From NCBI GenBank assembly GCA_049968235.1, contig JBMFRC010000028.1:1-39105 (forward strand): 39,105 nucleotides of DNA, in the 5' to 3' direction. Origin of the DNA: Candidatus Hydrogenedens sp. (GTDB lineage Bacteria; Hydrogenedentota; Hydrogenedentia; Hydrogenedentales; Hydrogenedentaceae). Under the pieces are notes generated by a model. The model ran no database searches, was not told where the DNA came from, and saw nothing but the letters and a program-made list of their open reading frames with translations. The position numbers and the translations under genes are program-made. Below are positions 1-16,893 of this stretch, one piece after another; positions within the stretch are counted from its first letter, which is position 1; the number at the start of each line of letters is the position of its first letter.

Positions 1-858
1 ACTGTAGAGGTAGGAACATTAGTGAATCTTTGGGTATCCACAGGACCATGTCCTGAAGGCGAAGGCACTCCAGAAGGTACCCCCGAAGGTGTAGTTGAAG
101 GCACTCCAGAAGGCACGCCGGAAGGTACCCCCGAAGGTGTAGTTGAAGGAACGCCAGAAGGGACGCCGGAAGGCACCCCCGAAGGTGTAGTCGAAGGCGA
201 AGGTGAAGGCACAGTAGAGTATGCTATTGTTCCTTATGTAATAGGAGAAACATATGCATCTGCAAATTCACAGATTACATCTGCAGGTTTAACACTCGGA
301 AATGTTATAGAAGTATGCAGTAATACTTATCCTCTGGGAACGGTAATTGCTCAAGACCCGAGTGGTGGAAATACAGCGGAATTAGGTAGCCCTGTAGATT
401 TGGTCGTAGCATGTGGTCCTTGCGTGACCATTCCTGATATAGTAGGTGAACAACTTACAGATGCATTATCTACACTGATAGGCTATGGGCTATCCATAGG
501 AGATATTATTTCAGTGTGTGATAATACAGCTCCGATAGGGTCTGTATTGTCTCAAGATCCAACACCTGTAGAGAACACATGCACATTAGATACAACTGTT
601 GATTTGTATGTAGTTTGTGGGCCATGTATGCAGATAAGTTTCCCGTATGTAGTAGGAAATACAGAAGGATTAGCAATAAGTATTTTAACTGGGGGTGGAT
701 ATAGTGTAAATGATGTAATCTATGTATGTGATAATAATGTGCCGGCAGGATATGTGATAGACCAATATCCGCCATCCGATTTAAATACGCCACCGTTAGT
801 CAATACATGTAACCTTGATGTAGACCTGCTAATTTCAACGGGTCCATGTAAGAAGTAA
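1..858 (+). CDS. C-terminal portion of a secreted/cell-surface protein: Glu/Pro/Gly-rich (TPEG)n linker followed by three ~65-aa Cys-containing PASTA-like repeats; 5' end lies outside the window
   Basis: Frame 1 is open from nt 1 (no in-frame stop before the listed GTG at 22; the first codons encode ...TVEVGTLVNLWVSTGPC, i.e. the tail of a preceding repeat). Three repeats of pattern 'P.IVGe.y..A...L...GL..G.I..VC.N..P.G.V..QdP.......VDL.V.CGPC' resemble PASTA domains (PBP/STK-associated) but carry 4 conserved Cys each. Stop TAA 856-858. Confidence 0.6.
   Translation, partial: TVEVGTLVNLWVSTGPCPEGEGTPEGTPEGVVEGTPEGTPEGTPEGVVEGTPEGTPEGTPEGVVEGEGEGTVEYAIVPYVIGETYASANSQITSAGLTLGNVIEVCSNTYPLGTVIAQDPSGGNTAELGSPVDLVVACGPCVTIPDIVGEQLTDALSTLIGYGLSIGDIISVCDNTAPIGSVLSQDPTPVENTCTLDTTVDLYVVCGPCMQISFPYVVGNTEGLAISILTGGGYSVNDVIYVCDNNVPAGYVIDQYPPSDLNTPPLVNTCNLDVDLLISTGPCKK
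52..213 (+). repeat. In-frame tandem repeat array built from 12-nt units (acnccngaaggn = TPEG, gtagtngaaggn = VVEG), organised as 36/48-nt higher-order repeats; encodes EGEG(TPEG)2VVEG(TPEG)3VVEG(TPEG)3VVEGEGEG
   Basis: Direct reading: near-identical 12-nt units repeated 11 times with synonymous wobble variation (ggt/ggc, cca/ccg/ccc). Confidence 0.85.
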
Positions 859-3850: not shown

Positions 3851-4026
3851 TTGTAACCTCTTAAAAATATTTTATTTCCATATAAAAAAATGATAGAATT
3901 TAAAATGCGAAAATTAATATTTGACATTAATAAATTATTTACAATTGCTTTTACAATATAATATTATAGTTATGCTGATTGAAGCAATAAGAATGTTGGA
4001 ATGATAATATTCAAGAAGGATGTAAA

Positions 4027-6771
4027 ATGTTAAGTTGGCGAAAAGATTCTGAAATAGATAAAAAAAATGTTAACAAACCAAAAAGCCCGGTGGAAAAAGA
4101 AACCGGGACGAAGGGCAGAAATCAGGAAATCCAAGAGACACGAGGGGGGATGTCTCATAAAAGACTTGGGGATTTACTTCTTGAAGAGAAATTAATAACA
4201 TTAGAACAATTAGCAGAAGCGTTGAAAATTCAATCGGAAGAAGGTGGTTTTTTAGGGAGAATATTGGTAGAGAAGGGTTTCATAAAACAAGATGTTGTGT
4301 CTTCGTGTCTTGCTAAACAGTGTAAAATTCCTCATATTAATCTTGTAGAATATGATATTTCTCCAGAGGTTATACATCTTGTCCCGGAAGAAATTTGCAG
4401 GAGGAGATATTTACTCCCTATAGATAAATTAGGACGGATTTTGACTGTTGCTATGGTTGACCCTTTAGATACTGATGCTCTGGAGGAAGTACGGAATCAT
4501 TGCCCCGATTTAAGAATAAAACCAATACTATGTAGCTGGGATGATTTAAATCGGGCTTTTGATAAAGCATTTCGCAAGAGCAAACAAAGTGGAGATATGA
4601 TATCTGTTCTGACCTCAGATTCATTAGGTTTGAGAAAGGTAGAAACAGAAACATCAAAAGTAGAAAGCTCCGTTGAATCCGAACCTATTCTCCCTGCATC
4701 TATTCTGGAAGAAGTAGAAAAAACAGCCGAGAAGACAAAGGATATATTTCCTCATGAGACCCATATTCCTTCCCGTACTGAAGGAATGGGAGAAAAGACA
4801 ATACAAACTCCCATTGCTACTGAGGTAGTTGTTGATACATCCATTGTGCAGGCAATACATGAACTTCCCCGGATTCTCTCCGAGTCTATTCGCGAATCTC
4901 TCACACAGGTAAATATTAACATTCCGATGCCTCCACCGCCACCTACTCCAACTTCGTCTATTTCTGAAGAACGATTTTCAGAATTAATTCGGGAACTGAG
5001 TACTGTATATAAAGAATCCATTACTCAGGTGGCTCAAAATATATACTTAAAAATAAACGAAGATAGGGTAGAGGGACAAAACCAAATTGCAAGTGTTATT
5101 CAATCAAATATTGCAGGTGTTTTCCAGCAGGCTATTTTCACGATGGTAAGTCAATTGAAGGAAGAAATGTCTGTAAGAGAAAAGAACTTCCAGACAAATA
5201 CAGAACAGTTGGCACAGGTGATACGAAATGGTATAAGTGAGTTATCTAACCAGTTACTAAATTCAGTATCTAATGAAATTCAGAATTCAACTCGTTTTGT
5301 AGCACAAATTCCAGAAGAGGTGGCAAAAACTGTAGAAAAGGTCGTTGAAAAGATAGATAATACCGACCAAAAACTTTCATCACAGATGTCTATTGCAGAA
5401 AAAACGCAAGAAATTCTATTGACTGTAAAAGACTCTATTGTTAATGGACTTCAAACTACATTGGAGTCTGCAATAACCAAACTGGTAGAAGAGTTAAGGC
5501 AAGGAGAGGAAATAGGAGAACCTGACCCTGTTTTGTTAAATCTTACAGAAGCAATTAAAAAATTAGATGAAGCCATTCTTGAAAATCGTAAAGTACAGGA
5601 ATCACAGGTACAAAAATTTGCTCAGATTACAGAATCAGTTATCCAATCCGTTCAGCAGACAACAAACCAGGCAATTAAGGAAATTATTAAAGATAGAGAA
5701 CGGGAACATTTAGAAGTAAAAGAAGAAAAACCCAAAACCGACACCGTTATTCCTGAACTAAAAGAAGTTGTTGAACAATTAAAAGAATCTGTGCAAAAAA
5801 CACAAAAAATGCAAGATGTCCAGACAGAGAAGATAACCCGATTAACAGAAACAACACTGGAATCTGTGCAACAAACAGCCCAGTTGGTTGAAACTCTGAC
5901 TGTAATGGAGGGGAAACGGATAGAAACATTAGAAGAGAAAAAACGAAGGTTATCCGCAGTATCTCCGTTTGGGAATACTCATACAGTTCCACCAGAAGAA
6001 TTAGAGGAATCAGATAAAGAGGTTTGGAAAGCCCTTGAATCCGAACAACCTCTGGAAACACTTACTTTCGATAATTTTTTCCCCGGTTCTGTGAATGCAT
6101 TTACATTTAAATTGAGTAAAGCAGTAGCAGAAAATCCAGGGTCTGAATACAATCCCTATTTTCTATACGGCAATGTAGGTATCGGTAAAACGCATTTAAT
6201 TAGTGCTATTGGCAATGGCATACTTAAAAAACACCCCAAAAAAAGAGTGGGCTATGTATCTGCCAGTCATTTCTCAAGGAGGTTAGCAGAAGCGTTAAAA
6301 GAAGGAGCCTTAGACCTATTTCGTGAAAATTATTGTCATTGGGATGTGTTAATTCTTGATGATATTCAATTTTTAGGGGGAAAGGTAGATGCCCAGGAAG
6401 AATTTTTCCATGTATTTAATGTGCTTCATCAAAGTAAAAGACAAATTATTATTGCAAGTGATAAAGCTCCTGACCGTTTAGGTATGTTAGAACAAAGACT
6501 GGTGTCCCGCTTTTCCAGTGGTATCGTAGCGGAACTAAAATCGCCCGAATGGGAAACGCGAATGCAAATATTGCGAAATCAAATCAAAGAAGCAGGGGTT
6601 CAAGTCCCAGAAGAGGTATTGAGTTTAATTGCAATGCGGGTCCCCAATGATGTGCGTAAAATGATGGGTTCATTAAAAAAGATTATTGCCTTTGCAAAAT
6701 TGGTCGGACAAAGTATTACCTGTGAGATGGCAGATGAAATATTAAGTCATTTAGGAGTTGTAGCAGCGTAA
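4027..6771 (+). CDS. Fusion protein: N-terminal MshE-N/GspE-N (T2SSE_N, c-di-GMP-binding type) domain - ~450-aa Glu/Gln/Lys-rich coiled-coil/low-complexity linker with poly-Pro - C-terminal DnaA domain-III AAA+ ATPase module lacking DnaA domains I/II and the DNA-binding domain IV
   Basis: Residues ~42-180: two tandem 24-aa MshEN-type motifs 'RLGDLLLEEKLITLEQLAEALKIQ' and 'FLGRILVEKGFIKQDVVSSCLAKQ', then 'IPHINLVEYDISPEVIHLVPEEICRRRYLLPI...LTVAMVDPLDTDALEEV' (GspE_N fold signature). Residues ~680-914 (nt 6061-6771) match DnaA domain III: 'LTFDNFFPGSVN', 'YNPYFLYGNVGIGKTHLISAIGNGI' (Walker A), 'DVLILDDIQFLGGKVDAQEEFFHVFNVL' (Walker B/box), 'QIIIASDKAP...EQRLVSRFSSGIVAELKSPEWETRMQIL' (sensor I / Arg finger), 'NDVRKMMGSL' (sensor II). 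ORF ends about 20 aa later, with no HTH domain IV. RBS aaggat 4015-4020; alternative start ATG 4150 directly before the MshEN motif. Confidence 0.8.
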   Translation: MLSWRKDSEIDKKNVNKPKSPVEKETGTKGRNQEIQETRGGMSHKRLGDLLLEEKLITLEQLAEALKIQSEEGGFLGRILVEKGFIKQDVVSSCLAKQCKIPHINLVEYDISPEVIHLVPEEICRRRYLLPIDKLGRILTVAMVDPLDTDALEEVRNHCPDLRIKPILCSWDDLNRAFDKAFRKSKQSGDMISVLTSDSLGLRKVETETSKVESSVESEPILPASILEEVEKTAEKTKDIFPHETHIPSRTEGMGEKTIQTPIATEVVVDTSIVQAIHELPRILSESIRESLTQVNINIPMPPPPPTPTSSISEERFSELIRELSTVYKESITQVAQNIYLKINEDRVEGQNQIASVIQSNIAGVFQQAIFTMVSQLKEEMSVREKNFQTNTEQLAQVIRNGISELSNQLLNSVSNEIQNSTRFVAQIPEEVAKTVEKVVEKIDNTDQKLSSQMSIAEKTQEILLTVKDSIVNGLQTTLESAITKLVEELRQGEEIGEPDPVLLNLTEAIKKLDEAILENRKVQESQVQKFAQITESVIQSVQQTTNQAIKEIIKDREREHLEVKEEKPKTDTVIPELKEVVEQLKESVQKTQKMQDVQTEKITRLTETTLESVQQTAQLVETLTVMEGKRIETLEEKKRRLSAVSPFGNTHTVPPEELEESDKEVWKALESEQPLETLTFDNFFPGSVNAFTFKLSKAVAENPGSEYNPYFLYGNVGIGKTHLISAIGNGILKKHPKKRVGYVSASHFSRRLAEALKEGALDLFRENYCHWDVLILDDIQFLGGKVDAQEEFFHVFNVLHQSKRQIIIASDKAPDRLGMLEQRLVSRFSSGIVAELKSPEWETRMQILRNQIKEAGVQVPEEVLSLIAMRVPNDVRKMMGSLKKIIAFAKLVGQSITCEMADEILSHLGVVAA

Positions 6772-6851
6772 ATCCAAAGAAATATATGTGTTATAGGTTT
6801 CGTTATAATATATTATAAAAATTAAATTATAGTTGCAAATATTTTAGGAGA

Positions 6852-8579
6852 TTGAATGTGAGAATAGCTAAAAAACGATTACCCGAGATGCTTCTCGATT
6901 TAGGAGTTATTAACAAAGAAAAATTAAATGAATGTATAAAAATTCAACAGCAGACAGGTAAAAATCTTCAAGATATATTACTTGAAAAGAAGTATATATC
7001 AGAGGAAGAACTGGTGGAAACACTCAGCGAACAACTTCAAATTCCTCATATCCGTGTATCAAATTATGCAATCCCCAAAGAAGTACTTGCTGAAGTTCCC
7101 GAAGGACTTGCAAAACAATATCAAGTATTACCTATCTCTATAACAGGTGATATTTTAACACTTGCCATGGCAAATCCATTAAATATCCTTGCTTTAGATG
7201 ATATTCGAATGATAACAGGTAAGGAAATTGAGCCTGTGATTGCTATGCCCTCAGAACTTCGTGATGTGATAGAGAAAAACTATAGTGGTGATAGGGCATC
7301 GGAGATATATGCTTCTTTATTAGCAGAACATTCGCAACAAGATGAAGTTGAAGAATTTAAGACTTCATCCGAAGAAGTTGAGGATGTAAGTAAAATTGAA
7401 TCCGTAGAAGAAGATGAACCTGTAAAAAAAATGGCGCGTCTGATTGTTCTGGATGCTCTAGAAAGAGGAGCGTCAGACATACATATTGAGCCATTTGAAA
7501 AAATTATTCGCATTCGCTATCGTGTAGACGGTGCCCTCGAGGAAGCAAAATCACCTCCTAAGTCTATGCAATCAAATCTTATTGCTCGCTTTAAAATTTT
7601 ATCGGGTTGTAGAATTGATGAACATCGTCTCCCACAAGATGGTCGTTTCCGCATAAAATTTCGAGGTAGAGAGATAGATTTCCGTGTAGCATTTCTTCCT
7701 TGTAAATATGGCGAAAAGATAGTATTGCGTGTACTTGATAAGAGCAATTTGGTGTTGAATCTTGAAGATATGGGTTTTGAGCCTCAGCCTCTGGAAGCAT
7801 TATACCATGCGTTGAAATTACCCCATGGCATGATACTTTTAACGGGACCAACAGGAAGTGGTAAAACCACAACACTATACAGTTGCTTAACCCGCCTGAA
7901 TACAATAGAAACAAATATAGTAACTGTAGAAGACCCTATCGAGTATGAATTGTTTGGAATTAATCAGGTGCAGGTGCAATCCCGTATTGGATTTACATTT
8001 GCAGAAGCATTACGCCAAATTTTGCGTCAGGACCCTAATATTATAATGGTCGGGGAAATCCGTGATGGAGAGACAGCAGATATAGCAGTGAAAGCAGCAT
8101 TGACCGGGCACCTTGTGTTAAGCACATTACACACAAACGACGCCGCAGGTGTATTTCCTCGATTAATAGATATGGGTATAGAGCCATTCCTTGTCCAATC
8201 CTCTGTGGCTCTCGCAGCAGCACAACGATTATTAAAACGAGTTTGTAAAGAATGTAAAGAAAATATATCTGTAGATAGAAATGTGTTAGAACGTATTCAA
8301 TTTCATGGATTCCCCCACATTCCTAATCCTCAATTTGTCCGGGGCAGAGGTTGTCCAAAATGTAAGGACTCGGGATATAAAGGACGGATTGCCTGTCTGG
8401 AAGCCATGTTAAATTGGCCTGAATTGCATCCACTGGTTTTGAACCGTGCATCAGGTTATGAAATTAAGAAACAAGCAATTGCATGTGGAATGAAAACACT
8501 GCGACAAAATGCACTTGCCCTTGCTGCACGAAGTTTTACAACGATTGAACAGGTTCTTGAGCATACTATTGCTGATTAA
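6852..8579 (+). CDS. Type II secretion / type IV pilus assembly ATPase of the GspE/PilB/MshE family, with N-terminal MshEN-type domain
   Basis: TTG start with RBS aggag 6846-6850. N-term 'RLPEMLLDLGVINKEKLNECIKIQ' + 'LQDILLEKKYISEEELVETLSEQ' (MshEN-like tandem motifs) and 'IPHIRVSNYAIPKEVLAEVPEGLAKQYQVLPI'; Walker A 'LLTGPTGSGKTTTLYSCL'; Asp/His boxes 'IIMVGEIRDGETADIAVKAALTGHLVLSTLHTND'; tetracysteine Zn motif 'CKECKE...GRGCPKCKDSGYKGR'. Confidence 0.9.
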   Translation: MNVRIAKKRLPEMLLDLGVINKEKLNECIKIQQQTGKNLQDILLEKKYISEEELVETLSEQLQIPHIRVSNYAIPKEVLAEVPEGLAKQYQVLPISITGDILTLAMANPLNILALDDIRMITGKEIEPVIAMPSELRDVIEKNYSGDRASEIYASLLAEHSQQDEVEEFKTSSEEVEDVSKIESVEEDEPVKKMARLIVLDALERGASDIHIEPFEKIIRIRYRVDGALEEAKSPPKSMQSNLIARFKILSGCRIDEHRLPQDGRFRIKFRGREIDFRVAFLPCKYGEKIVLRVLDKSNLVLNLEDMGFEPQPLEALYHALKLPHGMILLTGPTGSGKTTTLYSCLTRLNTIETNIVTVEDPIEYELFGINQVQVQSRIGFTFAEALRQILRQDPNIIMVGEIRDGETADIAVKAALTGHLVLSTLHTNDAAGVFPRLIDMGIEPFLVQSSVALAAAQRLLKRVCKECKENISVDRNVLERIQFHGFPHIPNPQFVRGRGCPKCKDSGYKGRIACLEAMLNWPELHPLVLNRASGYEIKKQAIACGMKTLRQNALALAARSFTTIEQVLEHTIAD

Positions 8580-8611: not shown

Positions 8612-9538
8612 ATGAAAAGAGGAAATCAAAAAAAAAGGAAAGTAGTGAATAGTTTTTTATTTATTTCCTTACTTTTATTTCTAGCTTCATGTGAAGGAAT
8701 CTACACAATACAGGGAAAAGTTTTTGCCATTAATGGAGAGCCTCTCCCCGGTGTATGTGTTTCCAGTCCCGAAATATTTAGCCATGTAATAACAAATGCA
8801 AAAGGGAGCTTTGTTTTTCGTTTTTCAAAACCCATTAGCAAGTTAGAGTTTATAAAATCAGATTATCTTCCGTTTACCATTTCCCTTCATTTCTCCGAAA
8901 AAAAATACATTACTCTAACGGATATATTTCTTACCCCCAAACCTTCATCTCCCGGTGTTTATTTCCTTGATAAAGAAAAAAATAGATATTTACCCTTAAT
9001 AAAAGGGAAAATAGAGAGAACCCAATTCCAAAAGCGAAATTCTGTTCCTTCTATAAAATTAAGTGAGATAGTACACATTAGAGATACTTTCCCACAACTT
9101 TATGTTTTTCGTTTACCACAATATGATATAACCTTGTATCAGATGAAAGAATATACTACCGGAGCAGACGAAACAAAACCTGACAAAAATTCAGATAAAA
9201 AGGAAAAACAGTCTGCTGAGAAAGATACGGAAGTATCTAAGGAAAGAAAAATATGGATTCCCGATAAACCTATTTTAACTTATGCTGAGTTCCTTTCAGA
9301 ACAGGATACAAGTTTGTTCCTATTTAAGCCTGTAAGTGAATTAAAACCCGGTGTCTATTGTGTAAATTGGCGAGCTTTTGAGGTACCTTTCCCGCGGATG
9401 AGCGAATGCTTTTTATTCTCTGTTGAAGAAGAACAAAAAGCGGAAGAATCTTCTGCAAAAACTCCTTTATCCGATACAAAAAAAGAGGACGAAAATAAAA
9501 AAACAGGGGATGGTAAAGTAGGTAAAAACAAATTGTAG
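8612..9538 (+). CDS. Lipoprotein of unknown function with N-terminal carboxypeptidase-regulatory-like beta-sandwich and Lys/Glu-rich C-terminal tail
   Basis: Signal peptide + lipobox 'LLFLASCEG'; 'GKVFAINGEPLPGVCVSS...TNAKGSFVFRF' resembles CarboxypepD_reg-like domains; C-terminal KKEDENKKTGDGKVGKNKL. Confidence 0.5.
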   Translation: MKRGNQKKRKVVNSFLFISLLLFLASCEGIYTIQGKVFAINGEPLPGVCVSSPEIFSHVITNAKGSFVFRFSKPISKLEFIKSDYLPFTISLHFSEKKYITLTDIFLTPKPSSPGVYFLDKEKNRYLPLIKGKIERTQFQKRNSVPSIKLSEIVHIRDTFPQLYVFRLPQYDITLYQMKEYTTGADETKPDKNSDKKEKQSAEKDTEVSKERKIWIPDKPILTYAEFLSEQDTSLFLFKPVSELKPGVYCVNWRAFEVPFPRMSECFLFSVEEEQKAEESSAKTPLSDTKKEDENKKTGDGKVGKNKL

Positions 9539-9655: not shown

Positions 9656-10447
9656 ATGAAAGAGAAAAATACACAGGATAAAATCGACGATATGTTATCA
9701 AGAGATACATTAAAACTGAAATTAGAACAGTTTGAAGGTCCGTTTGAAATACTTCTTTATCTAATCAAAGAACAGGAAATAGACATATTTGATATACCGA
9801 TAGTTCAGATAACAGAACAGTATCTTGAAATCCTTGATTTAATGAAAGAACGGCAATTAGAAATTGCAGGTGATTTTCTTGTGATGGCAGCAACACTAAT
9901 TCAGATAAAATCGCGTATGCTTCTCCCTCCGGATACTGACGAAGAAGAGGAAATTGAAGAAGAAGACCCAAGATTAGAATTAGTAGAGCGTTTGTTAGAA
10001 TATCGAAAATTCAAGGAATTAGGGAAAAAATTAGGAGAATTGGAAGAACAACAATATGATTTTCTACCGAGAAAATTTCCTTCCTATTTAGAACCTTCTG
10101 TCCAGGAAGAATGGGTTGAAGTTACACTTGCGGATTTGATGAAAGCAATAAAAAGAGTATTGCGTTACCTTTTAGAGCCTTCTGTCCAATGGATAGAACT
10201 TGAAAAATATACGGTAGAAGAAAAGATTACCGAAATATGGGACACATTATCCAGGCAACAGAGTATTTCTTCCGTAGAACTTTTGAAAGAATGCAAAACA
10301 ACGATAGAAAAAGTATGTGTTATTTTGGCAATATTGGAACTATGCCGGCAAAGAAAAATAGTGTTCCGTCAACAACAGCCTTATGGACAATTTTTCTTGT
10401 ATGTAACAAAAAACTACGATGAGACCCCTGTTGATATAAGTGGCTAA
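9656..10447 (+). CDS. scpA: Segregation and condensation protein A (kleisin of the SMC-ScpAB complex)
   Basis: 'FEGPFEILLYLIKEQEIDIFDIPIVQITEQYLEIL...LEIAGDFLVMAATLIQIKSRMLLP' is the ScpA N-terminal signature; ~260 aa. Confidence 0.85.
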   Translation: MKEKNTQDKIDDMLSRDTLKLKLEQFEGPFEILLYLIKEQEIDIFDIPIVQITEQYLEILDLMKERQLEIAGDFLVMAATLIQIKSRMLLPPDTDEEEEIEEEDPRLELVERLLEYRKFKELGKKLGELEEQQYDFLPRKFPSYLEPSVQEEWVEVTLADLMKAIKRVLRYLLEPSVQWIELEKYTVEEKITEIWDTLSRQQSISSVELLKECKTTIEKVCVILAILELCRQRKIVFRQQQPYGQFFLYVTKNYDETPVDISG

Positions 10448-10838
10448 TTGGTTAGAAAAAATATTTCCTTTTATAAAAATAGATAGAGAACTTACACCCA
10501 GAGATTTGGGTAGGGAAGGAGAAAAAGAGGCTGTTCGTTTTTTGAAAAATCAGGGATTAAAAGTTTTGGGAACAAATGTCAGAATAAGAAAATATGAAAT
10601 TGATTTAATTGCCCGGGATGGCAATGAACTTGTTTTTGTAGAGGTAAAAACATGTCGCAATGATAAATGGAACTACCCAGAGGATAAAGTTAATTATAAA
10701 AAAAGGAAAAATTTAAGGAAAGCAGGGAAACAGTATATTATTCGATATGCCCCACATACCAAATATTACCGTTTTGATATTATTGCAATAACATGGGAGC
10801 CTACTCTATCTGTCCAGTGGATAAAAAATGCTTTTTAA
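10440..10838 (+). CDS. yraN: YraN family (UPF0102) endonuclease-like protein
   Basis: GTG start overlapping the scpA stop by 8 nt (translational coupling). 'GEKEAVRFLKNQGLKVLGTNVRIRKYEIDLIARDGNELVFVEVKTCRN' and C-terminal 'VQWIKNAF' match YraN (E. coli ...GEIDLIMREG..VFVEVRYRR...VEWIKDAF). Confidence 0.8.
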   Translation: MANWLEKIFPFIKIDRELTPRDLGREGEKEAVRFLKNQGLKVLGTNVRIRKYEIDLIARDGNELVFVEVKTCRNDKWNYPEDKVNYKKRKNLRKAGKQYIIRYAPHTKYYRFDIIAITWEPTLSVQWIKNAF

Positions 10839-10841
10839 CCT

Positions 10842-11939
10842 TTATGGATTATCTACCCATGATAGCCATTCAACTTTTCCCTGTGCGTCAATCATAAATT
10901 TCCTTGCCCTTAAATTCGATGAAGGACCTTCTTCATAATAGACGATAAGTATACTATCATCTTTTAATGTTACCATAGAAGGGTATGCCCCTATGCACGG
11001 GTCAACTAATATTGGTTCGTTCCATGAAACAGCATCATCTGTACTTATACTTATACAGGTTCCCTTGTGAGGTGAACGAATACCCATTAATAAAACTCCT
11101 GATGGTGCACGATATAAATAAGGAGAATGCCCCGGGAAAGGGAGTGCTTTACTGATGCTCCATGTTTTGCCCCCATCAGTAGATAATGAAAATCCCATAG
11201 GTAAGTCGCTATGTCCCCGTTGTGCAATAAATAGATTCTGATTCTTCAATATACATATATCCGGTTCCGCATCAAGTTTTAATGTCCCATAATCAATGTC
11301 AATAGGAGTAGACCATGTGATTCCTTTATCTTTCGAAAGAGATACTGCACCACAACCTCCTTTTCGTTCATCGGCATATAGACTAATGATTAATATACCA
11401 TCTGAAAGTGTTCGTATCGGAGAACTACAGTAATACTCAGAAAAAATTTGTTGAGGTTCCGACCATGTTTTTCCCCAATCTTCAGAAGAAATTATCCATG
11501 TTCCCAAGCCTTCCCATTGCTTGTCCTGATTTTTAATGGGTTTTAAAGAAAAGAAATTACAAATCAACTTTTTATTGTCAATCACTGCGATAGATGGGTC
11601 ACGGTCATCATAAGGACTATCATAAACAACAAAGGGCTTTCCCCATGTTTTCCCTTCATCTTCCGAAAATATTCCAGAAATTCGTCCTCCTTTAGGGTAT
11701 GTATCATTCGGCAATGATACATGGGCATAGCCATCATAAAAAACACAGAGTAATCTTCCATCAGGTAGTCTGCATATATCAGGGAAAGCCTCATAAGCAC
11801 CTCTACCACCATCTTTACATATAACAAGGTAGTCTTTTCCCTCTTGCAGGGGTAAGGATTGCCCCTCTGCATAAGCACAAACAGATAGAAGATACAACAG
11901 GAATATCCATTGCCAAAATATAAACTGTAGTCGTTTCAT
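10842..11939 (-). CDS. Secreted BNR/Asp-box repeat glycoside hydrolase (GH33 sialidase-like beta-propeller)
   Basis: Signal peptide; five Asp-box repeats 'SEDEGKTWGKP', 'SEDWGKTWSEP', 'SKDKGITWSTP', 'STDGGKTWSIS', 'STDDAVSWNEP' (S-x-D-x-G-x-T-W). Confidence 0.7.
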   Translation of the reverse strand: MKRLQFIFWQWIFLLYLLSVCAYAEGQSLPLQEGKDYLVICKDGGRGAYEAFPDICRLPDGRLLCVFYDGYAHVSLPNDTYPKGGRISGIFSEDEGKTWGKPFVVYDSPYDDRDPSIAVIDNKKLICNFFSLKPIKNQDKQWEGLGTWIISSEDWGKTWSEPQQIFSEYYCSSPIRTLSDGILIISLYADERKGGCGAVSLSKDKGITWSTPIDIDYGTLKLDAEPDICILKNQNLFIAQRGHSDLPMGFSLSTDGGKTWSISKALPFPGHSPYLYRAPSGVLLMGIRSPHKGTCISISTDDAVSWNEPILVDPCIGAYPSMVTLKDDSILIVYYEEGPSSNLRARKFMIDAQGKVEWLSWVDNP

Positions 11940-15098: not shown

Positions 15099-15836
15099 TT
15101 AAGAGTCTGTAGAAATATCTTTTAAGTTAGATTCAAATTGTTTTCGAACTGCTTCAAGATGTCGAATTATGAGTAATTCTGCCAAATCCCCATCGCGTTG
15201 TTCAAAGGCTTCTAATATGCGCTCAGCAAGTCGGTCTAACTCCTGTTTCCCAATCAGAATGATATCCACCATCTCATTAATTTTAAGAAAGGCTTGCCAC
15301 ATTGTATTGTACAAAAGTTCATAAATCTGGTTTCTTGTTGCTTGAGAAAATAGGCGGAAAAAACGTTCATTTACTTTTTGTAATTCCTCCGGATTGTATA
15401 TGGTAGTTTTCCTCTTCTGGAATAGATAACGAAGTTCATCCAATTCTTCCTGAGTATGTCGTTCCGCAGCAAGACGGACAACCTGTCGGACCATATTGTC
15501 TCTGAATTCAAGAATGTCCTTAAGCAAAGGTAAATTTACTGTCCCATTTTCATCACGAATTAATGTGTCAAATAATTCAAGTCCTCCAATCAGATCAATG
15601 TCTTGGACAACAATACCAGACCCCTGTCGAATTTTGACCAACCCTAAAGCCTCTAATCTTTTTAATGCTTCTCGGACACTATGTCGTGTGGCTTTGAACT
15701 TTTCTGCTAATTCCCGTTCTGTGGGTAATTTTTCTCCCGATTTATATTCTTTATTAATAATTTTCCTGCATAGTTCATCTGCAATTTTTTTAGACCGTGT
15801 TGAAGCAAAGTTTTTTTCGTTTTTTTTCTTTTCCAT
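15099..15836 (-). CDS. GntR-family transcriptional regulator (FadR/FCD-type C-terminal domain) with Lys-rich N-terminal extension
   Basis: wHTH '[42 protein letters not shown]'; alpha-helical C-terminal effector domain. Confidence 0.85.
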
Positions 15837-15864
15837 AATTGTTCAACCAATTTTGAAATTTAAT

Positions 15865-15893
15865 TTGACAAAAGACCTTTTATTTGATATATT
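15865..15893 (+). promoter_or_regulatory. Sigma70-type promoter for the DUF1559 gene: TTGACA-N17-TATATT
   Basis: ttgaca 15865-15870, 17-nt spacer, tatatt 15888-15893; about 55 nt upstream of ATG 15949. Confidence 0.5.
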
Positions 15894-15898
15894 ATACA

Positions 15899-15915
15899 AA
15901 TTGGTTCATCCAATT
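15899..15915. promoter_or_regulatory. 17-bp perfect palindrome AATTGG-ttcat-CCAATT, candidate operator for the divergent GntR regulator
   Basis: aattggttcatccaatt is its own reverse complement in the 6-bp arms. A third copy of the half-site (aaCCAATTtt, 15845-15854) lies 45 bp upstream on the other side of the -35. It sits between the -10 and the RBS of the DUF1559 gene. Confidence 0.4.
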
Positions 15916-15948
15916 ATAAAAATTAATATAATCAAAGGAGAACAAAAA

Positions 15949-16893
15949 ATGAAACGAACTGGTTTTACACTCATCGAATTATTAGTTGTGATTGCCATTA
16001 TTGGTATCCTTGCTGCGATTTTACTTCCGGCATTGGCTCGCGCTCGTGAGGCGGCTCGCCGTTCTTCTTGTGCTAATAATTTAAAACAATGGGGACTCGT
16101 TTTTAAAATGTATGCCAACGAATCTCCCGGAGGAAAATTTCCACCCAGCGAATTAGAATTAGGCTGTGGTGCCCGTCCTTGTATGGCATTCGGTCCGTTA
16201 ATTAGTGTCATATATCCGGAATATCTTACAGACCCGGCGATAATCTTTTGTCCTTCCGATGCAAAAGATAGATTAGAAAACTTTATTGACCCTCAAACAA
16301 AAGAATTTACCATGTTACAAAAGATAGATGGAAATCGTCAGCAGGGTGTAGAAGGAATTGATGCAAGTTATACTTATGCCAATTTCGTATTTGACCGCTG
16401 TGGAGATGAATATGGCACAAAATCTACAGCAGCATTGCAAGCATTGGCTACTATAATTGGGAATCCTCTTGACCCATCAATTACGGAAGGCGCAGCTCAG
16501 TTTATTGAAGTAGTAGAAGATATGATTGATAAATTGAGACCTTATTTCCTTTCAAATGATGCAAATGGATTCAGGCGGGAGGCTGATAATGATAGACAGG
16601 TTTCGGATGGATTAGGTAATGGCGGAGGGAAAATTGTTTATCGCTTGAGAGAAGGTATAGAACGATTTTTGATTACAGATATTAATAATCCTGCTGCAAG
16701 TGCGAAGGCACAAAGTTCTATTTTTGTCATGTGGGATAATGTATCTGACCAGGTAGCAAAATTTAACCATATTCCCGGTGGTAGCAATATTCTGTATATG
16801 GATGGGCATGTATCCTTTGTTCGCTTTCCAGGTGAACCGCCCATGGTTGCTGAACTTGCTGCAATCATGCGAGTTTTCGATATTGCAGAATAG
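15949..16893 (+). CDS. Prepilin-type N-terminal cleavage/methylation-domain protein with DUF1559 (H-X9-DG) C-terminal domain (pseudopilin-like, Planctomycetota-type)
   Basis: ATG 15949 with RBS aaaggag 15934-15940. '[47 protein letters not shown]' is the class III signal/N-methylation motif + helix; C-terminal '[12 protein letters not shown]' is the DUF1559 signature. The listed ORF 15496-16893 is an artefactual upstream extension. Confidence 0.85.

What the first reader, a model, noticed from the sequence alone, without database searches (positions are those of the whole stretch)
4027..8579. Tandem paralogs sharing an MshEN-type N-terminus but carrying different ATPase engines (DnaA-type AAA+ versus GspE/PilB secretion ATPase)
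Genes 4027-6771 and 6852-8579 are adjacent, co-directional and 80 nt apart.
- **Shared N-termini.** They are clearly homologous. Both carry two tandem MshEN-like motifs followed by an IPHI(N/R)...LLPI..LTVAM(V/A)(D/N)P block.
- **Different engines.** Downstream of that block, one gene has a RecA-like secretion ATPase with a tetracysteine Zn finger. The other has a DnaA-type AAA+ module.

This looks like a local duplication followed by replacement of the motor domain, with both copies keeping the putative c-di-GMP-sensing head. That would make them an unusual pair of second-messenger receptors with different outputs.
Basis: partly seen in the sequence, partly recalled or inferred. Interest (0 to 1): 0.7.

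Follow-up and report, generated by a model that had tools for sequence, protein, structure and literature searches.

The report
Pilus-operon c-di-GMP sensor with DnaA ATPase

Summary
Gene 1 (4027-6771, 914 aa) has an MshEN head, a roughly 490-aa linker and a DnaA domain III AAA+ module. Gene 2 (6852/6858-8579) is a PilB-type pilus ATPase with an MshEN head. The heads are 34% identical (E=5e-22).

The duplication reading is not supported. Gene-1-type heads are no closer to the neighbouring PilB head (median 32%) than to PilB heads of Myxococcus or Geobacter (29-31%). A clade joining both heads got 0 of 1000 bootstraps.

The pair itself is ancient and conserved:
- 307 species genomes, almost all Hydrogenedentota, encode a relative.
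- In 71 of 72 testable loci PilB follows directly, usually then PilT-PilS-PilR.
- Three more distant lineages also carry MshEN-DnaA fusions inside pilus clusters.

Gene 1 keeps both glycines that MshE needs to bind c-di-GMP. The PilB partners never keep the second one. Gene 1 keeps every ATPase catalytic residue (120/120) but has no DnaA domain I or IV.

Best reading (confidence about 0.5): a c-di-GMP-sensing accessory ATPase of the pilus motor. A link to replication or DNA handling remains possible. I could not establish whether the phylum also has a canonical DnaA.

The parts
3851..4026 (+). AT-rich intergenic region upstream of gene 1, between divergent genes. It holds the best sigma-70-like match, TTTACA-18-TATTAT at 3938-3967, and the AGAAGGA ribosome-binding site at 4013-4019.
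   Evidence: The promoter scan is no better than shuffled sequence (24 sites versus 21.3 expected), so this is only a candidate.
4027..6771 (+). Gene 1: MshEN head, linker and DnaA domain III ATPase (914 aa). It belongs to a family found across Hydrogenedentota.
4162..4320 (+). Gene 1 aa 46-98: the 53-residue c-di-GMP-binding module. Motif I is RLGDLLLEEKLITLEQLAEALKIQ, the spacer is SEEGG, and motif II is FLGRILVEKGFIKQDVVSSCLAKQ. The Gly at position 3 is kept in both motifs.
   Evidence: NF053729 scores 59.5 bits against a cutoff of 38. In the family, Gly is kept in 78/80 (motif I) and 73/80 (motif II). The model shows a four-helix bundle, pLDDT 73-82.
4324..4584 (+). Gene 1 aa 100-186: MshEN_C (GspE N1-like) alpha/beta subdomain. 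This is the most conserved part of the head (..LLPIDKLGRILTVAMVDPLD..LRIKPILC).
   Evidence: Pfam PF05157 62 bits. Mean column conservation is 0.89 over aa 136-150.
4585..4965 (+). Gene 1 aa 187-313: poorly conserved segment, mostly predicted disordered, including a proline run at aa 301-308.
   Evidence: pLDDT is mostly below 50. Conservation is low and gaps are frequent.
4966..5952 (+). Gene 1 aa 314-642: five long predicted helices of 35-71 residues, rich in E, Q and K. This is a spacer of variable length across the family, whose members range from 550 to 1049 aa.
   Evidence: helices, pLDDT 50-68; lengths; composition. A weak match to the coiled-coil tail of ZorA3 (23.6 bits) reflects composition, not homology.
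5953..6057 (+). Gene 1 aa 643-677: segment just before the AAA+ module. It is partly conserved (..SxxPFG.., ..ALESExPLE..) and modelled mostly as disordered.
   Evidence: F648, D663, A669 and L670 are invariant in 40 sequences.
6058..6756 (+). Gene 1 aa 678-910: DnaA domain III AAA+ module (base plus lid). Key residues are Walker A K721, Walker B D778/D779, box VII R824/R828 and sensor II R877. The protein ends 4 residues later, so there is no domain IV.
   Evidence: 210 bits, ungapped against B. subtilis DnaA 113-343; TM 0.92 to 8bv3; catalytic residues 119-120 of 120.
6852..8579 (+). Gene 2: PilB-type type IV pilus extension ATPase. The start is probably the GTG at 6858.
   Evidence: In relatives it is followed by PilT, PilS and PilR.
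6876..7034 (+). Gene 2 aa 9-61: degenerate c-di-GMP motif pair. Motif I is RLPEMLLDLGVINKEKLNECIKIQ and motif II is NLQDILLEKKYISEEELVETLSEQ. Both position-3 glycines are replaced, by P and by Q.
   Evidence: 48 bits, still above the HMM cutoff of 38; mutant data.
7035..7298 (+). Gene 2 aa 62-149: MshEN_C subdomain.
   Evidence: Pfam PF05157 76.7 bits.
7407..8558 (+). Gene 2 aa 186-569: T2SSE secretion ATPase core. Walker A is at nt 7845-7868 and the tetracysteine CxxC pairs at 8244-8255 and 8352-8363.
   Evidence: Pfam PF00437 431 bits.

Best explanation
Genes 1 and 2 are a conserved two-gene module of type IV pilus (T4P) gene clusters, not a recent tandem duplicate. Gene 2 is the PilB extension motor. 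Gene 1 is an accessory protein with three parts:
- an MshEN head that keeps the residues needed to bind c-di-GMP;
- a long helical spacer;
- an ATPase-competent DnaA domain III AAA+ module that has lost DnaA domains I and IV.

**Proposed mechanism.** Gene 1 acts as the c-di-GMP-sensing regulator or adaptor of the pilus motor. Its head binds c-di-GMP. Through the highly conserved MshEN_C subdomain it docks on PilB or on the same pilus-base partner that PilB heads use. Its DnaA-type module oligomerises in an ATP-dependent way and serves as the switch or scaffold output. This would control pilus extension in place of PilB's own degenerate head.

**Shown here.** Domain architecture, folds, residue conservation, synteny across a phylum and in three further lineages, and the complementary pattern of glycine retention and loss.

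**Inferred.** c-di-GMP binding, docking, oligomerisation, and the direction of the effect on pili.
For: **1. Synteny.**
- 307 species-representative genomes encode a relative.
- 70 of 74 complete ORFs carry the DnaA module. In 71 of 72 testable loci PilB follows directly, with a median gap of 74 bp.
- On two complete chromosomes the order is MshEN-DnaA | PilB | PilT | PilS-like kinase | PilR-like regulator.
- In the Hydrogenedens genus, including this window, pilT/S/R are not nearby, yet the pair persists.

**2. Recurrence in three more distant lineages.** Their PilB is only 45-61% identical to Hydrogenedentota PilBs.
- L084: fusion | PilB | PilT | PilS | PilR | PilC, with a weak PilZ hit nearby.
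- L087: GGDEF-domain protein | PilT | fusion | PilB | PilB | PilC | PilS | PilR | pilin.
- L088: PilD | three fusion paralogues | PilB | PilT | PilC | PilS.

**3. Complementary heads.**
- Gene-1-type heads keep Gly3 in motif I (78/80) and motif II (73/80).
- No adjacent PilB keeps Gly3 of motif II: 0 of 71, and 0 of 4 in the other lineages.
- M. xanthus PilB, Geobacter PilB and the c-di-GMP-bound PilF GSPII-B domain keep both.
- The G11L and G40I variants of MshE bind poorly, if at all; changes of the first Arg cost less than fivefold (PMC5013675).
- PilF GSPII-B has Leu at motif II position 1, so the Phe/Tyr found here is plausible.

**4. Live ATPase.**
- Walker A K, Walker B DD, D812, R824, R828 and R877 are kept in 119-120 of 120 sequences.
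- Column conservation is 0.72-0.98 across aa 676-900.

**5. A wider pattern.** Related DnaA-III modules without domain IV sit in motility signalling clusters. An example is the Gemmatimonadota tandem DnaA-III protein inside a Che cluster with Roadblock/LC7 proteins and a weak Arf-type GTPase hit.

**6. No replication context.** No dnaN or origin-type neighbours appear in the window or in any annotated related locus.
Against: - No experiment exists. c-di-GMP binding is inferred from motifs only.
- Motif II starts with Phe/Tyr, outside the relaxed published pattern [RKPN]. In this window's protein motif I has Lys at the turn-glycine position.
- No GGDEF or EAL gene was seen in the window or in the 80 Hydrogenedentota loci. 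c-di-GMP signalling in the phylum was therefore not demonstrated here.
- The GGDEF-domain neighbour in L087 has a degenerate active site, KDDDF.
- No DnaA domain III is known to act on a pilus machine.
- The module is 41-46% identical to real DnaA, and R766, E792 and K/R786 (the B. subtilis ssDNA-contact residues R202, E228, K222) are invariant or conservatively replaced. A pure scaffold role does not explain this and it fits a DNA or DnaA partner better.
- Operon co-transcription is suggested only by spacing and the absence of + strand terminator-like sites.
Confidence: 0.5

Rival explanations
1. **Coupling to DNA.** The DnaA-type module still works on DnaA or on DNA. Tethered near the pilus base and gated by c-di-GMP, it would do one of two things:
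- co-assemble with, cap or inactivate the chromosomal initiator DnaA, as Hda does but wired differently, linking surface or pilus signalling to replication initiation;
- bind incoming single-stranded DNA during pilus-dependent DNA uptake.
For: - The module is 41-43% identical to DnaA domain III structures, with TM 0.90-0.92 to the B. subtilis and Thermotoga domain III structures, versus 20-24% and TM 0.66-0.74 for Hda.
- The arginine finger and R824 are invariant, as needed for head-to-tail DnaA oligomers.
- R766 and E792 are invariant and K/R786 is conservatively replaced. These match B. subtilis R202, E228 and K222, which contact DnaA-trio ssDNA (PMC10721633).
- There is a precedent for a pilus, c-di-GMP and replication-initiation link in Caulobacter (PMC7196804, title and abstract listed).
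Against: - Domains I and IV are absent.
- No Hda-type clamp-binding motif occurs in any of 120 members.
- Residues that are conserved in canonical DnaA and needed for growth in B. subtilis are replaced: N187 becomes R (108/120) and I190 becomes A, K or S. R206 becomes C (108/120).
- There is no synteny with replication or competence genes.
- Relatives lacking domain IV sit in chemotaxis and polarity clusters.
Confidence: 0.27
2. **First reader's model.** A local tandem duplication of pilB was followed by replacement of the secretion ATPase with a DnaA-type AAA+. Both copies remain c-di-GMP receptors with different outputs.
For: - The heads are homologous (34% identity, E=5e-22).
- The genes are adjacent and co-directional.
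- Both heads pass the NCBIfam c-di-GMP_motif cutoff.
Against: - Identity to the neighbour's head equals identity to PilB heads of unrelated phyla.
- An exclusive clade of the two heads got 0 of 1000 bootstraps.
- The gene-1-type head is also fused to other tails: a long coiled coil with an apparent cNMP-binding C-terminus (read by eye) in L079, and short helical tails in L033, L053 and L061.
- PilB heads lack the glycines required for binding.
Confidence: 0.07
3. **Gene 1 is the replication initiator.** It would be the organism's own DnaA, as some JGI and PGAP annotations name its homologues, with an unusual N-terminus and DNA recognition supplied in trans.
For: - Several homologues are annotated as 'chromosomal replication initiator protein DnaA'.
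- I could not find a canonical Hydrogenedentota DnaA with the tools available.
Against: - No domain IV helix-turn-helix and no domain I.
- The score is below the TIGR00362 cutoff (301 versus 343.9).
- The gene sits in a pilus operon, not beside dnaN.
- The ISM residue N187 is replaced in most members and I190 throughout; both are required for growth in B. subtilis.
- Some genomes carry variants without the DnaA module at the same position (L033, L053).
Confidence: 0.04
4. **Structural polar or pilus-base scaffold.** The MshEN head would be only a protein-docking domain with no nucleotide signal, and the AAA+ module only an oligomerisation domain.
For: - The MshEN_C subdomain is more conserved than the c-di-GMP motifs.
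- A long helical spacer is present.
- Paralogues keep the head and coiled coil but swap the C-terminal domain.
Against: - Both glycines and the Leu/Gln positions of the 24-residue motifs are selectively kept in gene-1-type heads but lost in PilB heads.
- All ATP-hydrolysis residues are invariant.
Confidence: 0.12

Closest known systems
MshE / PilB / PilF-type MshEN c-di-GMP receptor domains (V. cholerae MshE-N, PDB 5HTL; T. thermophilus PilF GSPII-B, 8PDK)
   Same: - Same fold: TM 0.74-0.76 to 5htl at 34-35% identity.
- Two 24-residue motifs separated by a 5-residue spacer.
- Both position-3 glycines and most Leu/Gln positions are kept.
- Located in a pilus gene cluster.
   Different: - The head is not attached to a secretion ATPase. 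It is joined through a spacer, about 490 aa here (much shorter in some members), to a DnaA-type AAA+ module.
- Motif II begins with Phe/Tyr instead of Arg.
- This partner domain is not among the architectures listed by Wang et al. 2016, in either the text or the supplement.
DnaA, the bacterial replication initiator (domain III; B. subtilis 8BV3/8BTG, Thermotoga 2Z4R, Aquifex 1L8Q)
   Same: - Ungapped 230-residue alignment, 41-46% identity, rmsd 1.8-1.9 A.
- Walker A and B, sensor I and II, box VII arginines, and the ssDNA-contact residues R202 and E228 (K222 as K/R) are conserved.
   Different: - No domain I, no domain IV, no dnaN neighbour.
- Residues that are strongly conserved in canonical DnaA are switched: A129T, E183S, N187R, I190A/K/S, R206C, N311D, E314K and L315M.
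Hda / HdaA (DnaA-related regulatory inactivator, domain III only)
   Same: A DnaA-family AAA+ module without domain IV that could act on DnaA through its arginine finger.
   Different: - Far closer to DnaA than to Hda: 210 versus 49 bits; TIGR03420 scores 102.6 against a cutoff of 194.8.
- No clamp-binding motif.
- Carries a sensor head and spacer of about 680 aa.
- Sits in a pilus-operon context.
Accessory c-di-GMP adaptors of PilB, such as FimX-PilZ-PilB in Xanthomonas and Pseudomonas (named in PMC12943098)
   Same: The same logic: c-di-GMP is sensed by a separate protein that acts on the PilB motor rather than by PilB itself.
   Different: Unrelated domains (EAL and PilZ versus MshEN plus DnaA-III). 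No interaction has been shown here.
Tandem DnaA-III proteins of Gemmatimonadota ('DnaA/Hda family protein', about 640 aa), found here
   Same: DnaA domain III modules without domain IV, encoded inside motility and signalling clusters.
   Different: - No MshEN head; two AAA+ modules in tandem.
- The context is chemotaxis genes with Roadblock/LC7 proteins rather than pilB.
- Only 33-37% identical to gene 1's module.

Membership tests
MshEN c-di-GMP receptor domain (gene 1) | [quoted passage not shown] | tested here: met
   The module spans aa 46-98. NF053729 scores 59.5 bits against a cutoff of 38. Deviations: Lys at motif I position 10 and Phe at motif II position 1.
MshEN c-di-GMP receptor domain (gene 1) | Gly at position 3 of both motifs (G11 and G40 of MshE; the G11L and G40I variants bind poorly, if at all) | tested here: met
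   G48 and G77 in this window. In the family, 78/80 and 73/80. Mutant data come from PMC5013675.
MshEN c-di-GMP receptor domain (gene 1) | Four-helix bundle followed by the alpha/beta MshEN_C subdomain | tested here: met
   In the AF2 model aa 45-182 have pLDDT 72-87. Foldseek gives TM 0.74-0.76 to 5htl.
MshEN c-di-GMP receptor domain (gene 1) | Measured binding of c-di-GMP | not testable with these tools
   Needs ITC, DRaCALA or DSF on the purified domain.
MshEN c-di-GMP receptor domain (gene 2) | Gly at position 3 of both motifs | tested here: not met
   Gene 2 has RLP and NLQ. Among PilB orthologues, motif II Gly is kept in 0 of 71 and motif I Gly in 29 of 71. The HMM score of 48 bits still passes the cutoff of 38, so gene 2 belongs to the domain family but is probably not a binder.
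DnaA, chromosomal replication initiator (gene 1) | AAA+ domain III with Walker A/B, sensor I/II and the box VII arginine finger | tested here: met
DnaA, chromosomal replication initiator (gene 1) | C-terminal domain IV helix-turn-helix that reads DnaA boxes (PF08299) | tested here: not met
   No Pfam hit. The protein ends 4 residues after the lid, and all 120 homologues end at the same point.
DnaA, chromosomal replication initiator (gene 1) | N-terminal domain I (PF11638) | tested here: not met
   No hit. The N-terminus is an MshEN domain.
DnaA, chromosomal replication initiator (gene 1) | Reaches the curated equivalog cutoff of TIGR00362 | tested here: not met
   301.1 bits against a cutoff of 343.9.
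DnaA, chromosomal replication initiator (gene 1) | Origin-type gene neighbourhood (dnaN, recF, gyrB, rpmH-rnpA) | tested here: not met
   The neighbours are a glycosyltransferase, pilB and scpA here, and pilB-pilT-pilS-pilR elsewhere. Canonical dnaA loci, shown for contrast, look different.
Hda (regulatory inactivator of DnaA) | Reaches the TIGR03420 cutoff; N-terminal clamp-binding motif QL[SDP]L[PF] | tested here: not met
   102.6 bits against a cutoff of 194.8. The motif is absent in all 120 members.
PilB, type IVa pilus extension ATPase (gene 2) | T2SSE ATPase core with Walker A, Walker B and the tetracysteine motif | tested here: met
   PF00437 scores 431 bits. Motifs are at aa 332, 401, 465 and 501.
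PilB, type IVa pilus extension ATPase (gene 2) | Reaches the TIGR02538 equivalog cutoff | tested here: not met
   620 bits against a cutoff of 675.65. PilB is still the best-scoring model, ahead of GspE at 559.
PilB, type IVa pilus extension ATPase (gene 2) | Encoded with other type IV pilus genes (pilT, pilC, pilS/R, pilin) | tested here: met
   Not met in this window, but orthologues 69-73% identical (Hydrogenedens-genus PilBs versus L081 PilB) are followed by pilT-pilS-pilR, and by pilC or a pilin gene in other lineages.

The most novel reading that the evidence does not exclude
A DnaA-derived ATPase has been recruited as a physical bridge between the type IV pilus machine, c-di-GMP and DNA. 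Docked at the pilus base through its MshEN head, the domain III module would either co-polymerise with, cap or sequester the chromosomal initiator DnaA, or bind single-stranded DNA. Surface or pilus signalling would then gate replication initiation, or the handling of DNA taken up by pili, directly and without a transcriptional cascade. A more extreme version is that Hydrogenedentota lack a canonical DnaA and use this protein as part of a split initiator.
Probability: 0.25. Interest if true: 0.88.

Novelty: new variant of a known kind. Interest (0 to 1): 0.66.

Why it matters
- **A new output for a known receptor.** MshEN is a widespread, high-affinity c-di-GMP receptor. Its described partner domains include secretion ATPases, glycosyltransferases and signalling domains such as REC, HD-GYP and CheA. 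A DnaA-type initiator ATPase would be a new one.
- **Scale.** The family is not a one-off. It is fixed across a whole candidate phylum (307 species genomes) and recurs in pilus clusters of other lineages.
- **A new context for DnaA domain III.** Outside initiators, Hda-type regulators and helicase loaders or transposition helpers, this module is not known to have been re-used. Finding it, catalytically intact and about 45% identical to real DnaA, inside motility gene clusters suggests either a new regulatory use of an initiator-type ATP switch or a direct pilus-to-chromosome link.
- **A testable prediction.** Where this partner exists, the pilus motor's own sensor head has decayed and the partner's has not.
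- **An annotation problem.** Pipelines sometimes label these proteins 'chromosomal replication initiator DnaA'. This can mislead origin finding and marker-gene analyses in these phyla.

Tried and rejected
**1. Looking for a canonical DnaA in Hydrogenedentota.**
- The exhaustive representative search with the DnaA module listed about 100 family representatives. After those came canonical DnaAs, about 45% identical, from Firmicutes, Chloroflexota and Actinobacteria.
- None could be tied to the phylum, so the question stays open.

**2. Taxon names for the three non-Hydrogenedentota-like lineages.**
- Exact look-ups returned no organism names.
- PilB identity (45-61%) had to serve as the only distance measure.

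**3. Homologue search with the short fusion P0225.**
- It was swamped by Gemmatimonadota tandem-domain proteins, whose two modules double the score. It gave a side observation rather than the intended relatives.

**4. Trees.**
- The first tree attempt timed out. The second had invalid distances for very divergent pairs.
- Only the corrected run is used.
- The DnaA-III tree resolves nothing deeper than the family. I therefore make no claim about one versus several fusion events.

**5. Literature.**
- Searches for MshEN + DnaA, DnaA-like + PilB, T2SSE_N + Bac_DnaA, Hydrogenedentes + DnaA and Hydrogenedentes + diguanylate cyclase found nothing relevant.

**6. Other scans.**
- Rfam: no riboswitch or other RNA in the window.
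- Promoter and terminator scans were at chance level.
- PADLOC: no defence-system match beyond a weak coiled-coil resemblance.
- A GGDEF/EAL consensus scan of all loci found only the L087 protein, whose active site is degenerate.

**7. Rejected readings.**
- An assembly or frameshift artefact joining two genes. The fusion is in one frame in 70 of 74 complete ORFs from independent assemblies.
- A mobile-element IstB-like helper. The IstB hits are weak overlaps of the same AAA+ fold (38.5 bits versus 190 for Bac_DnaA).

Full report
**What is in the window.**
The window is a 39,105-bp contig of a Candidatus Hydrogenedens MAG; the gene 1 product is 100% identical to an NCBI protein of that name.

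Gene 1 (4027-6771, +, 914 aa) and gene 2 (6852-8579, +) are real ORFs.

Gene 1 has a good ribosome-binding site, AGAAGGA, 7 nt before the ATG at 4027. Gene 2 more likely starts at the in-frame GTG at 6858, 7 nt after AGGAG, than at the listed TTG at 6852.

- Gene 1 has the 53-residue c-di-GMP motif module (aa 46-98, NF053729 59.5 bits, cutoff 38), Pfam MshEN (aa 100-186) and Bac_DnaA (aa 678-835, 190 bits).
- The DnaA equivalog TIGR00362 aligns only over model positions 41-338 of 437 and stays below its cutoff (301 versus 343.9).
- Gene 2 has the same two head models plus the T2SSE ATPase (431 bits), and PilB is its best-scoring equivalog (620 bits).
- The Walker A box and the two CxxC pairs of the tetracysteine motif are present in gene 2.
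- The heads align at 34% identity over 188 residues, E=5e-22.

**Anatomy of gene 1.**
An AlphaFold model built on a 40-sequence family alignment shows five regions:
- a confident head, aa 45-182, with four helices followed by an alpha/beta unit;
- a mostly low-confidence, largely unstructured stretch, aa 185-313;
- five long helices, aa 314-642, at moderate confidence;
- a short disordered segment (aa 651-672);
- a confident AAA+ domain, aa 680-910.

Foldseek places the C-terminal domain on B. subtilis DnaA domain III (8bv3: TM 0.92, rmsd 1.9 A, 41% identity). It lies much further from Hda (TM 0.66-0.74, 20-24% identity). The head falls on V. cholerae MshE-N bound to c-di-GMP (5htl: TM 0.74-0.76).

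By sequence, the module aligns without gaps to B. subtilis DnaA residues 113-343 (210 bits), against 49 bits for Hda.

The protein stops four residues after the lid. There is no domain IV and no domain I.

**It is a family, not an accident.**
- A search of 5.8 billion protein clusters returned 409 relatives. The best 120 all combine PF05157 with PF00308, are 550-1049 aa long and, where named, come from Hydrogenedentes/Hydrogenedentota.
- The head and the AAA+ module are strongly conserved, the spacer is not, and all members end at the same point.
- A scan of one genome per bacterial species found relatives in 307 genomes. Of the 80 loci fetched, about 54 are labelled Hydrogenedentota. Most of the rest carry automatic labels such as 'uncultured Nitrospirales'.

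**Is it a local duplication?**
I extracted the heads of the fusion gene ('D') and of the downstream PilB ('B') from these loci and compared them.

| Comparison | Median identity |
|---|---|
| D versus B, same locus (n=71) | 32.4% |
| D versus B, different loci | 31.7% |
| D versus M. xanthus PilB | 31.3% |
| D versus Geobacter PilB | 29.2% |
| D versus T. thermophilus PilF domains 1 and 3 | about 30% |
| B versus Myxococcus / Geobacter PilB | 36-37% |
| D versus D | 55.7% |
| B versus B | 70.7% |

In neighbour-joining bootstraps (139 columns, 1000 replicates):
- D-type heads, including two short-linker fusions from outside the core set, form a clade (79%).
- B heads form another clade (92%).
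- A clade uniting only D and B never appeared (0 of 1000).

The heads are homologous domains, but nothing links them specifically. Any duplication predates the phylum.

The D-type head also occurs with other tails. One is a roughly 800-aa coiled coil whose C-terminus reads as cNMP-binding-like by eye (L079, a second copy in one MAG). Others are short helical tails (L033, L053, L061). The head behaves as a module in its own right.

**The pair is nevertheless conserved, and it belongs to pilus clusters.**
- 70 of 74 complete ORFs carry the DnaA module. In 71 of 72 loci with enough downstream sequence, PilB follows directly, with a median gap of 74 bp.
- On two complete chromosomes the order is fusion | PilB | PilT | PilS-like kinase | PilR-like sigma-54 regulator.
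- In the Hydrogenedens genus, including this window, pilT, pilS, pilR and pilC are not nearby, yet the pair is kept. Here a genus-specific lipoprotein gene, scpA and yraN follow instead.

The exhaustive representative search with the DnaA module revealed further fusions: short-linker MshEN-DnaA proteins of about 450 aa, and giants of 1876 and 1990 aa with an MshEN head and two DnaA modules. Their contexts are again pilus clusters:
- L084: fusion | PilB | PilT | PilS | PilR | PilC, with a weak PilZ hit nearby.
- L087: GGDEF-domain protein | PilT | fusion | PilB | PilB | PilC | PilS | PilR | pilin.
- L088: PilD | fusion | MshEN-only protein | fusion | double fusion | TonB_C | PilB | unannotated gene | PilT | PilC | PilS.

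The PilBs of these loci are only 45-61% identical to Hydrogenedentota PilBs, so they represent more distant lineages. I could not obtain organism names for them.

**Which head can sense c-di-GMP?**
Wang et al. (PMC5013675) define two 24-residue motifs. They show that the G11L and G40I variants of MshE bind poorly, if at all, whereas changes of the first arginine cost less than fivefold.
- Gene 1 has RLG and FLG. Across 80 D heads, Gly3 is kept in 78 (motif I) and 73 (motif II).
- Gene 2 has RLP and NLQ. Across 71 PilB heads, motif I has Gly in only 29, and motif II has A, P, Q or S in 70 and never Gly.
- The same holds in the three other lineages. At least one fusion protein keeps both glycines, and all four adjacent PilBs have Q, S, A or P in motif II.
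- By contrast, M. xanthus PilB, Geobacter PilB and the PilF GSPII-B domain crystallised with c-di-GMP keep both glycines.
- GSPII-B has Leu at motif II position 1, so the Phe/Tyr of the D family is not disqualifying.

Gene 1 is therefore the better candidate receptor and gene 2 probably a degenerate one. Both statements are inferences from motifs.

**State of the DnaA module.**
- Conserved in 119-120 of 120 sequences: Walker A Lys, Walker B Asp-Asp, D812, R824, R828 (the arginine finger) and R877 (sensor II). The ATP switch is under strong selection.
- Of the residues that contact DnaA-trio ssDNA in the B. subtilis cryo-EM structure (PMC10721633), R202 and E228 are invariant and K222 is K/R.
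- Other contact residues have changed: N187 is Arg in 108 of 120, I190 is A, K or S, and I193 is variable but mostly hydrophobic.
- Several residues that are strongly conserved in canonical DnaA are switched in a family-specific way: A129T, E183S, R206C, N311D, E314K and L315M.
- No Hda-type clamp-binding motif occurs in any member.
- The module is 42-46% identical both to canonical DnaAs and to the other fusions. The deep branches of its tree are unresolved.

**Interpretation.**
The strongest evidence is contextual. The gene is a fixed partner of pilB across a phylum and recurs inside pilus clusters elsewhere, with a complementary pattern of sensor-head retention and decay.

I therefore favour (about 0.5) an accessory, c-di-GMP-sensing ATPase of the pilus extension motor. 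Its head would dock on PilB or on the PilB-binding platform, and its DnaA-type module would act as an ATP-dependent oligomerisation switch.

One side observation supports this. Tandem DnaA-III proteins of Gemmatimonadota also lack domain IV. They sit in a chemotaxis cluster with Roadblock/LC7 proteins and a weak Arf-type GTPase hit, a gene set I take from general knowledge to resemble MglA/MglB polarity modules. Initiator-type AAA+ modules appear to have been re-used in motility signalling more than once.

The main rival (about 0.27) is that the module still acts on DnaA or on ssDNA, coupling pili and c-di-GMP to replication or DNA uptake. Its closeness to true DnaA and the retained DNA-contact residues keep this alive. 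Caulobacter offers a precedent for a pilus, c-di-GMP and replication link (PMC7196804, title and abstract listed).

**Limits.**
- I could not determine whether Hydrogenedentota also have a canonical DnaA.
- I found no GGDEF or EAL gene in the window or in the Hydrogenedentota loci. The GGDEF-domain neighbour in L087 has a degenerate KDDDF site.
- Promoter and terminator scans are at chance level. No + strand terminator-like site lies between 3700 and 9800.
- No Rfam family matches the window.
- No paper in the searchable library describes an MshEN-DnaA fusion, and it is absent from the architecture tables of Wang et al. 2016.
- Neither Pfam nor NCBIfam returned a model specific to this family: the best NCBIfam hit is the DnaA equivalog, below its cutoff, and Pfam reports only the separate domain models.

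**Verdict.**
- The feature is a new variant of known kinds (an MshEN receptor and a DnaA-family AAA+) in an undescribed combination and context. It is widespread in an uncultured phylum and experimentally testable.

Noticed in passing
L089:9001-10944 (GCA_036493735.1, DASXPH010000144.1) and proteins P0276-P0394: Gemmatimonadota encode a large family of roughly 640-aa proteins with two tandem DnaA domain III modules and no domain IV, annotated 'DnaA/Hda family protein'. One of them sits inside a chemotaxis cluster (CheA, CheC/X, CheR, CheD, CheB, two CheW). The cluster also holds two Roadblock/LC7 proteins, a weak Arf-type small GTPase hit and PatA_N/TPR proteins. From general knowledge this resembles an MglA/MglB-type polarity module.
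   Followed up: partly
L088:2359-13973 (GCA_030620115.1, JAUXFG010000024.1): One pilus cluster carries three MshEN-DnaA paralogues (983, 398 and 1990 aa; the largest has two DnaA modules) plus an MshEN-only protein of 436 aa, between pilD and pilB. Only the 1990-aa protein keeps both c-di-GMP glycines.
   Followed up: partly
L079:9716-13501 (MAG CAXXYE01, which also holds the normal pair in L035): A second copy of the gene-1-type head is fused to a roughly 800-aa regular coiled coil. Its C-terminus looks like a cyclic-nucleotide-binding domain (..FGEMAWVSGEPRSATA..). It has no DnaA module and no PilB neighbour.
   Followed up: no
L033:~9950-10924, L053:9929-10936, L061:1783-2877: In three genomes the gene at the same position upstream of pilB has the gene-1-type head and a short helical tail but no DnaA module. 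These could be natural truncations, a distinct short form or assembly errors.
   Followed up: no
L087:5521-6942: The HAMP-GAF-GGDEF protein directly upstream of the pilT-fusion-pilB cluster has a degenerate active site (KDDDF instead of GGDEF) and KEID at the I-site position. It may be a c-di-GMP receptor rather than a cyclase.
   Followed up: partly
Record titles of loci L004, L007, L013, L014, L016, L020, L021, L027, L028, L032, L036, L044, L046, L048, L053, L055, L072 (Nitrospirales/Nitrospiraceae), L075 (Bathyarchaeia), L050 (Rhodothermaeota), L030 (FCB group): About 20 of the 80 loci carry this Hydrogenedentota-type gene pair but are labelled as other taxa, mostly 'uncultured Nitrospirales' from automated co-assembly pipelines and in one case an archaeon. 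Mislabelled bins or contamination seem likely.
   Followed up: no
window 6846-6860: The mechanical ORF start of gene 2 (TTG 6852) lies 1 nt after the AGGAG. The in-frame GTG at 6858 has ideal spacing and is the likelier start.
   Followed up: yes
window 8612-9538: A 308-aa predicted lipoprotein follows pilB. It has a signal peptide with a Cys and a Lys/Glu-rich C-terminus, and no Pfam or NCBIfam hit. At this position it is conserved only within the Hydrogenedens genus (41-79% identity in L001-L006); a weak 26% hit lies elsewhere in L046.
   Followed up: partly
window 22-858 and 984-2717: An ORF with at least two PASTA domains (Pfam) and a similar third repeat (by eye) begins with (EGTPEG/VVEG) repeats. 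The neighbouring NF038122-like metalloprotease also carries EGEG repeats and a C-terminal hydrophobic anchor. These are possibly cell-surface proteins with a shared low-complexity linker.
   Followed up: no
window 15496-16893: A protein with an N-terminal methylation (prepilin-type) motif plus DUF1559, a pseudopilin-like type also frequent in Planctomycetota (from general knowledge). Its real start is probably near aa 150 of the listed ORF. It is the only other pilus- or secretion-related gene in the window.
   Followed up: no
window 20184-~32259: Part of a division and cell-wall (dcw) cluster: mraZ, rsmH, a PASTA-bearing FtsI-type PBP and two Mur ligases confirmed by Pfam. The other ORFs in this stretch were not scanned. 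queA and a PTPS-family gene follow.
   Followed up: no
window 4966-5901 (gene 1 aa 315-625): The helical spacer gives a weak PADLOC hit to the long coiled-coil tail of ZorA3 (23.6 bits, E=3.8e-6). I read this as compositional or coiled-coil resemblance, not evidence of a defence role.
   Followed up: partly
P0388 (517 aa, NCBI): A canonical DnaA (domains I, III and IV) contains an internal duplication of about 65 residues of domain III (..[66 protein letters not shown].. occurs twice). This is either an assembly artefact or a real repeat.
   Followed up: no
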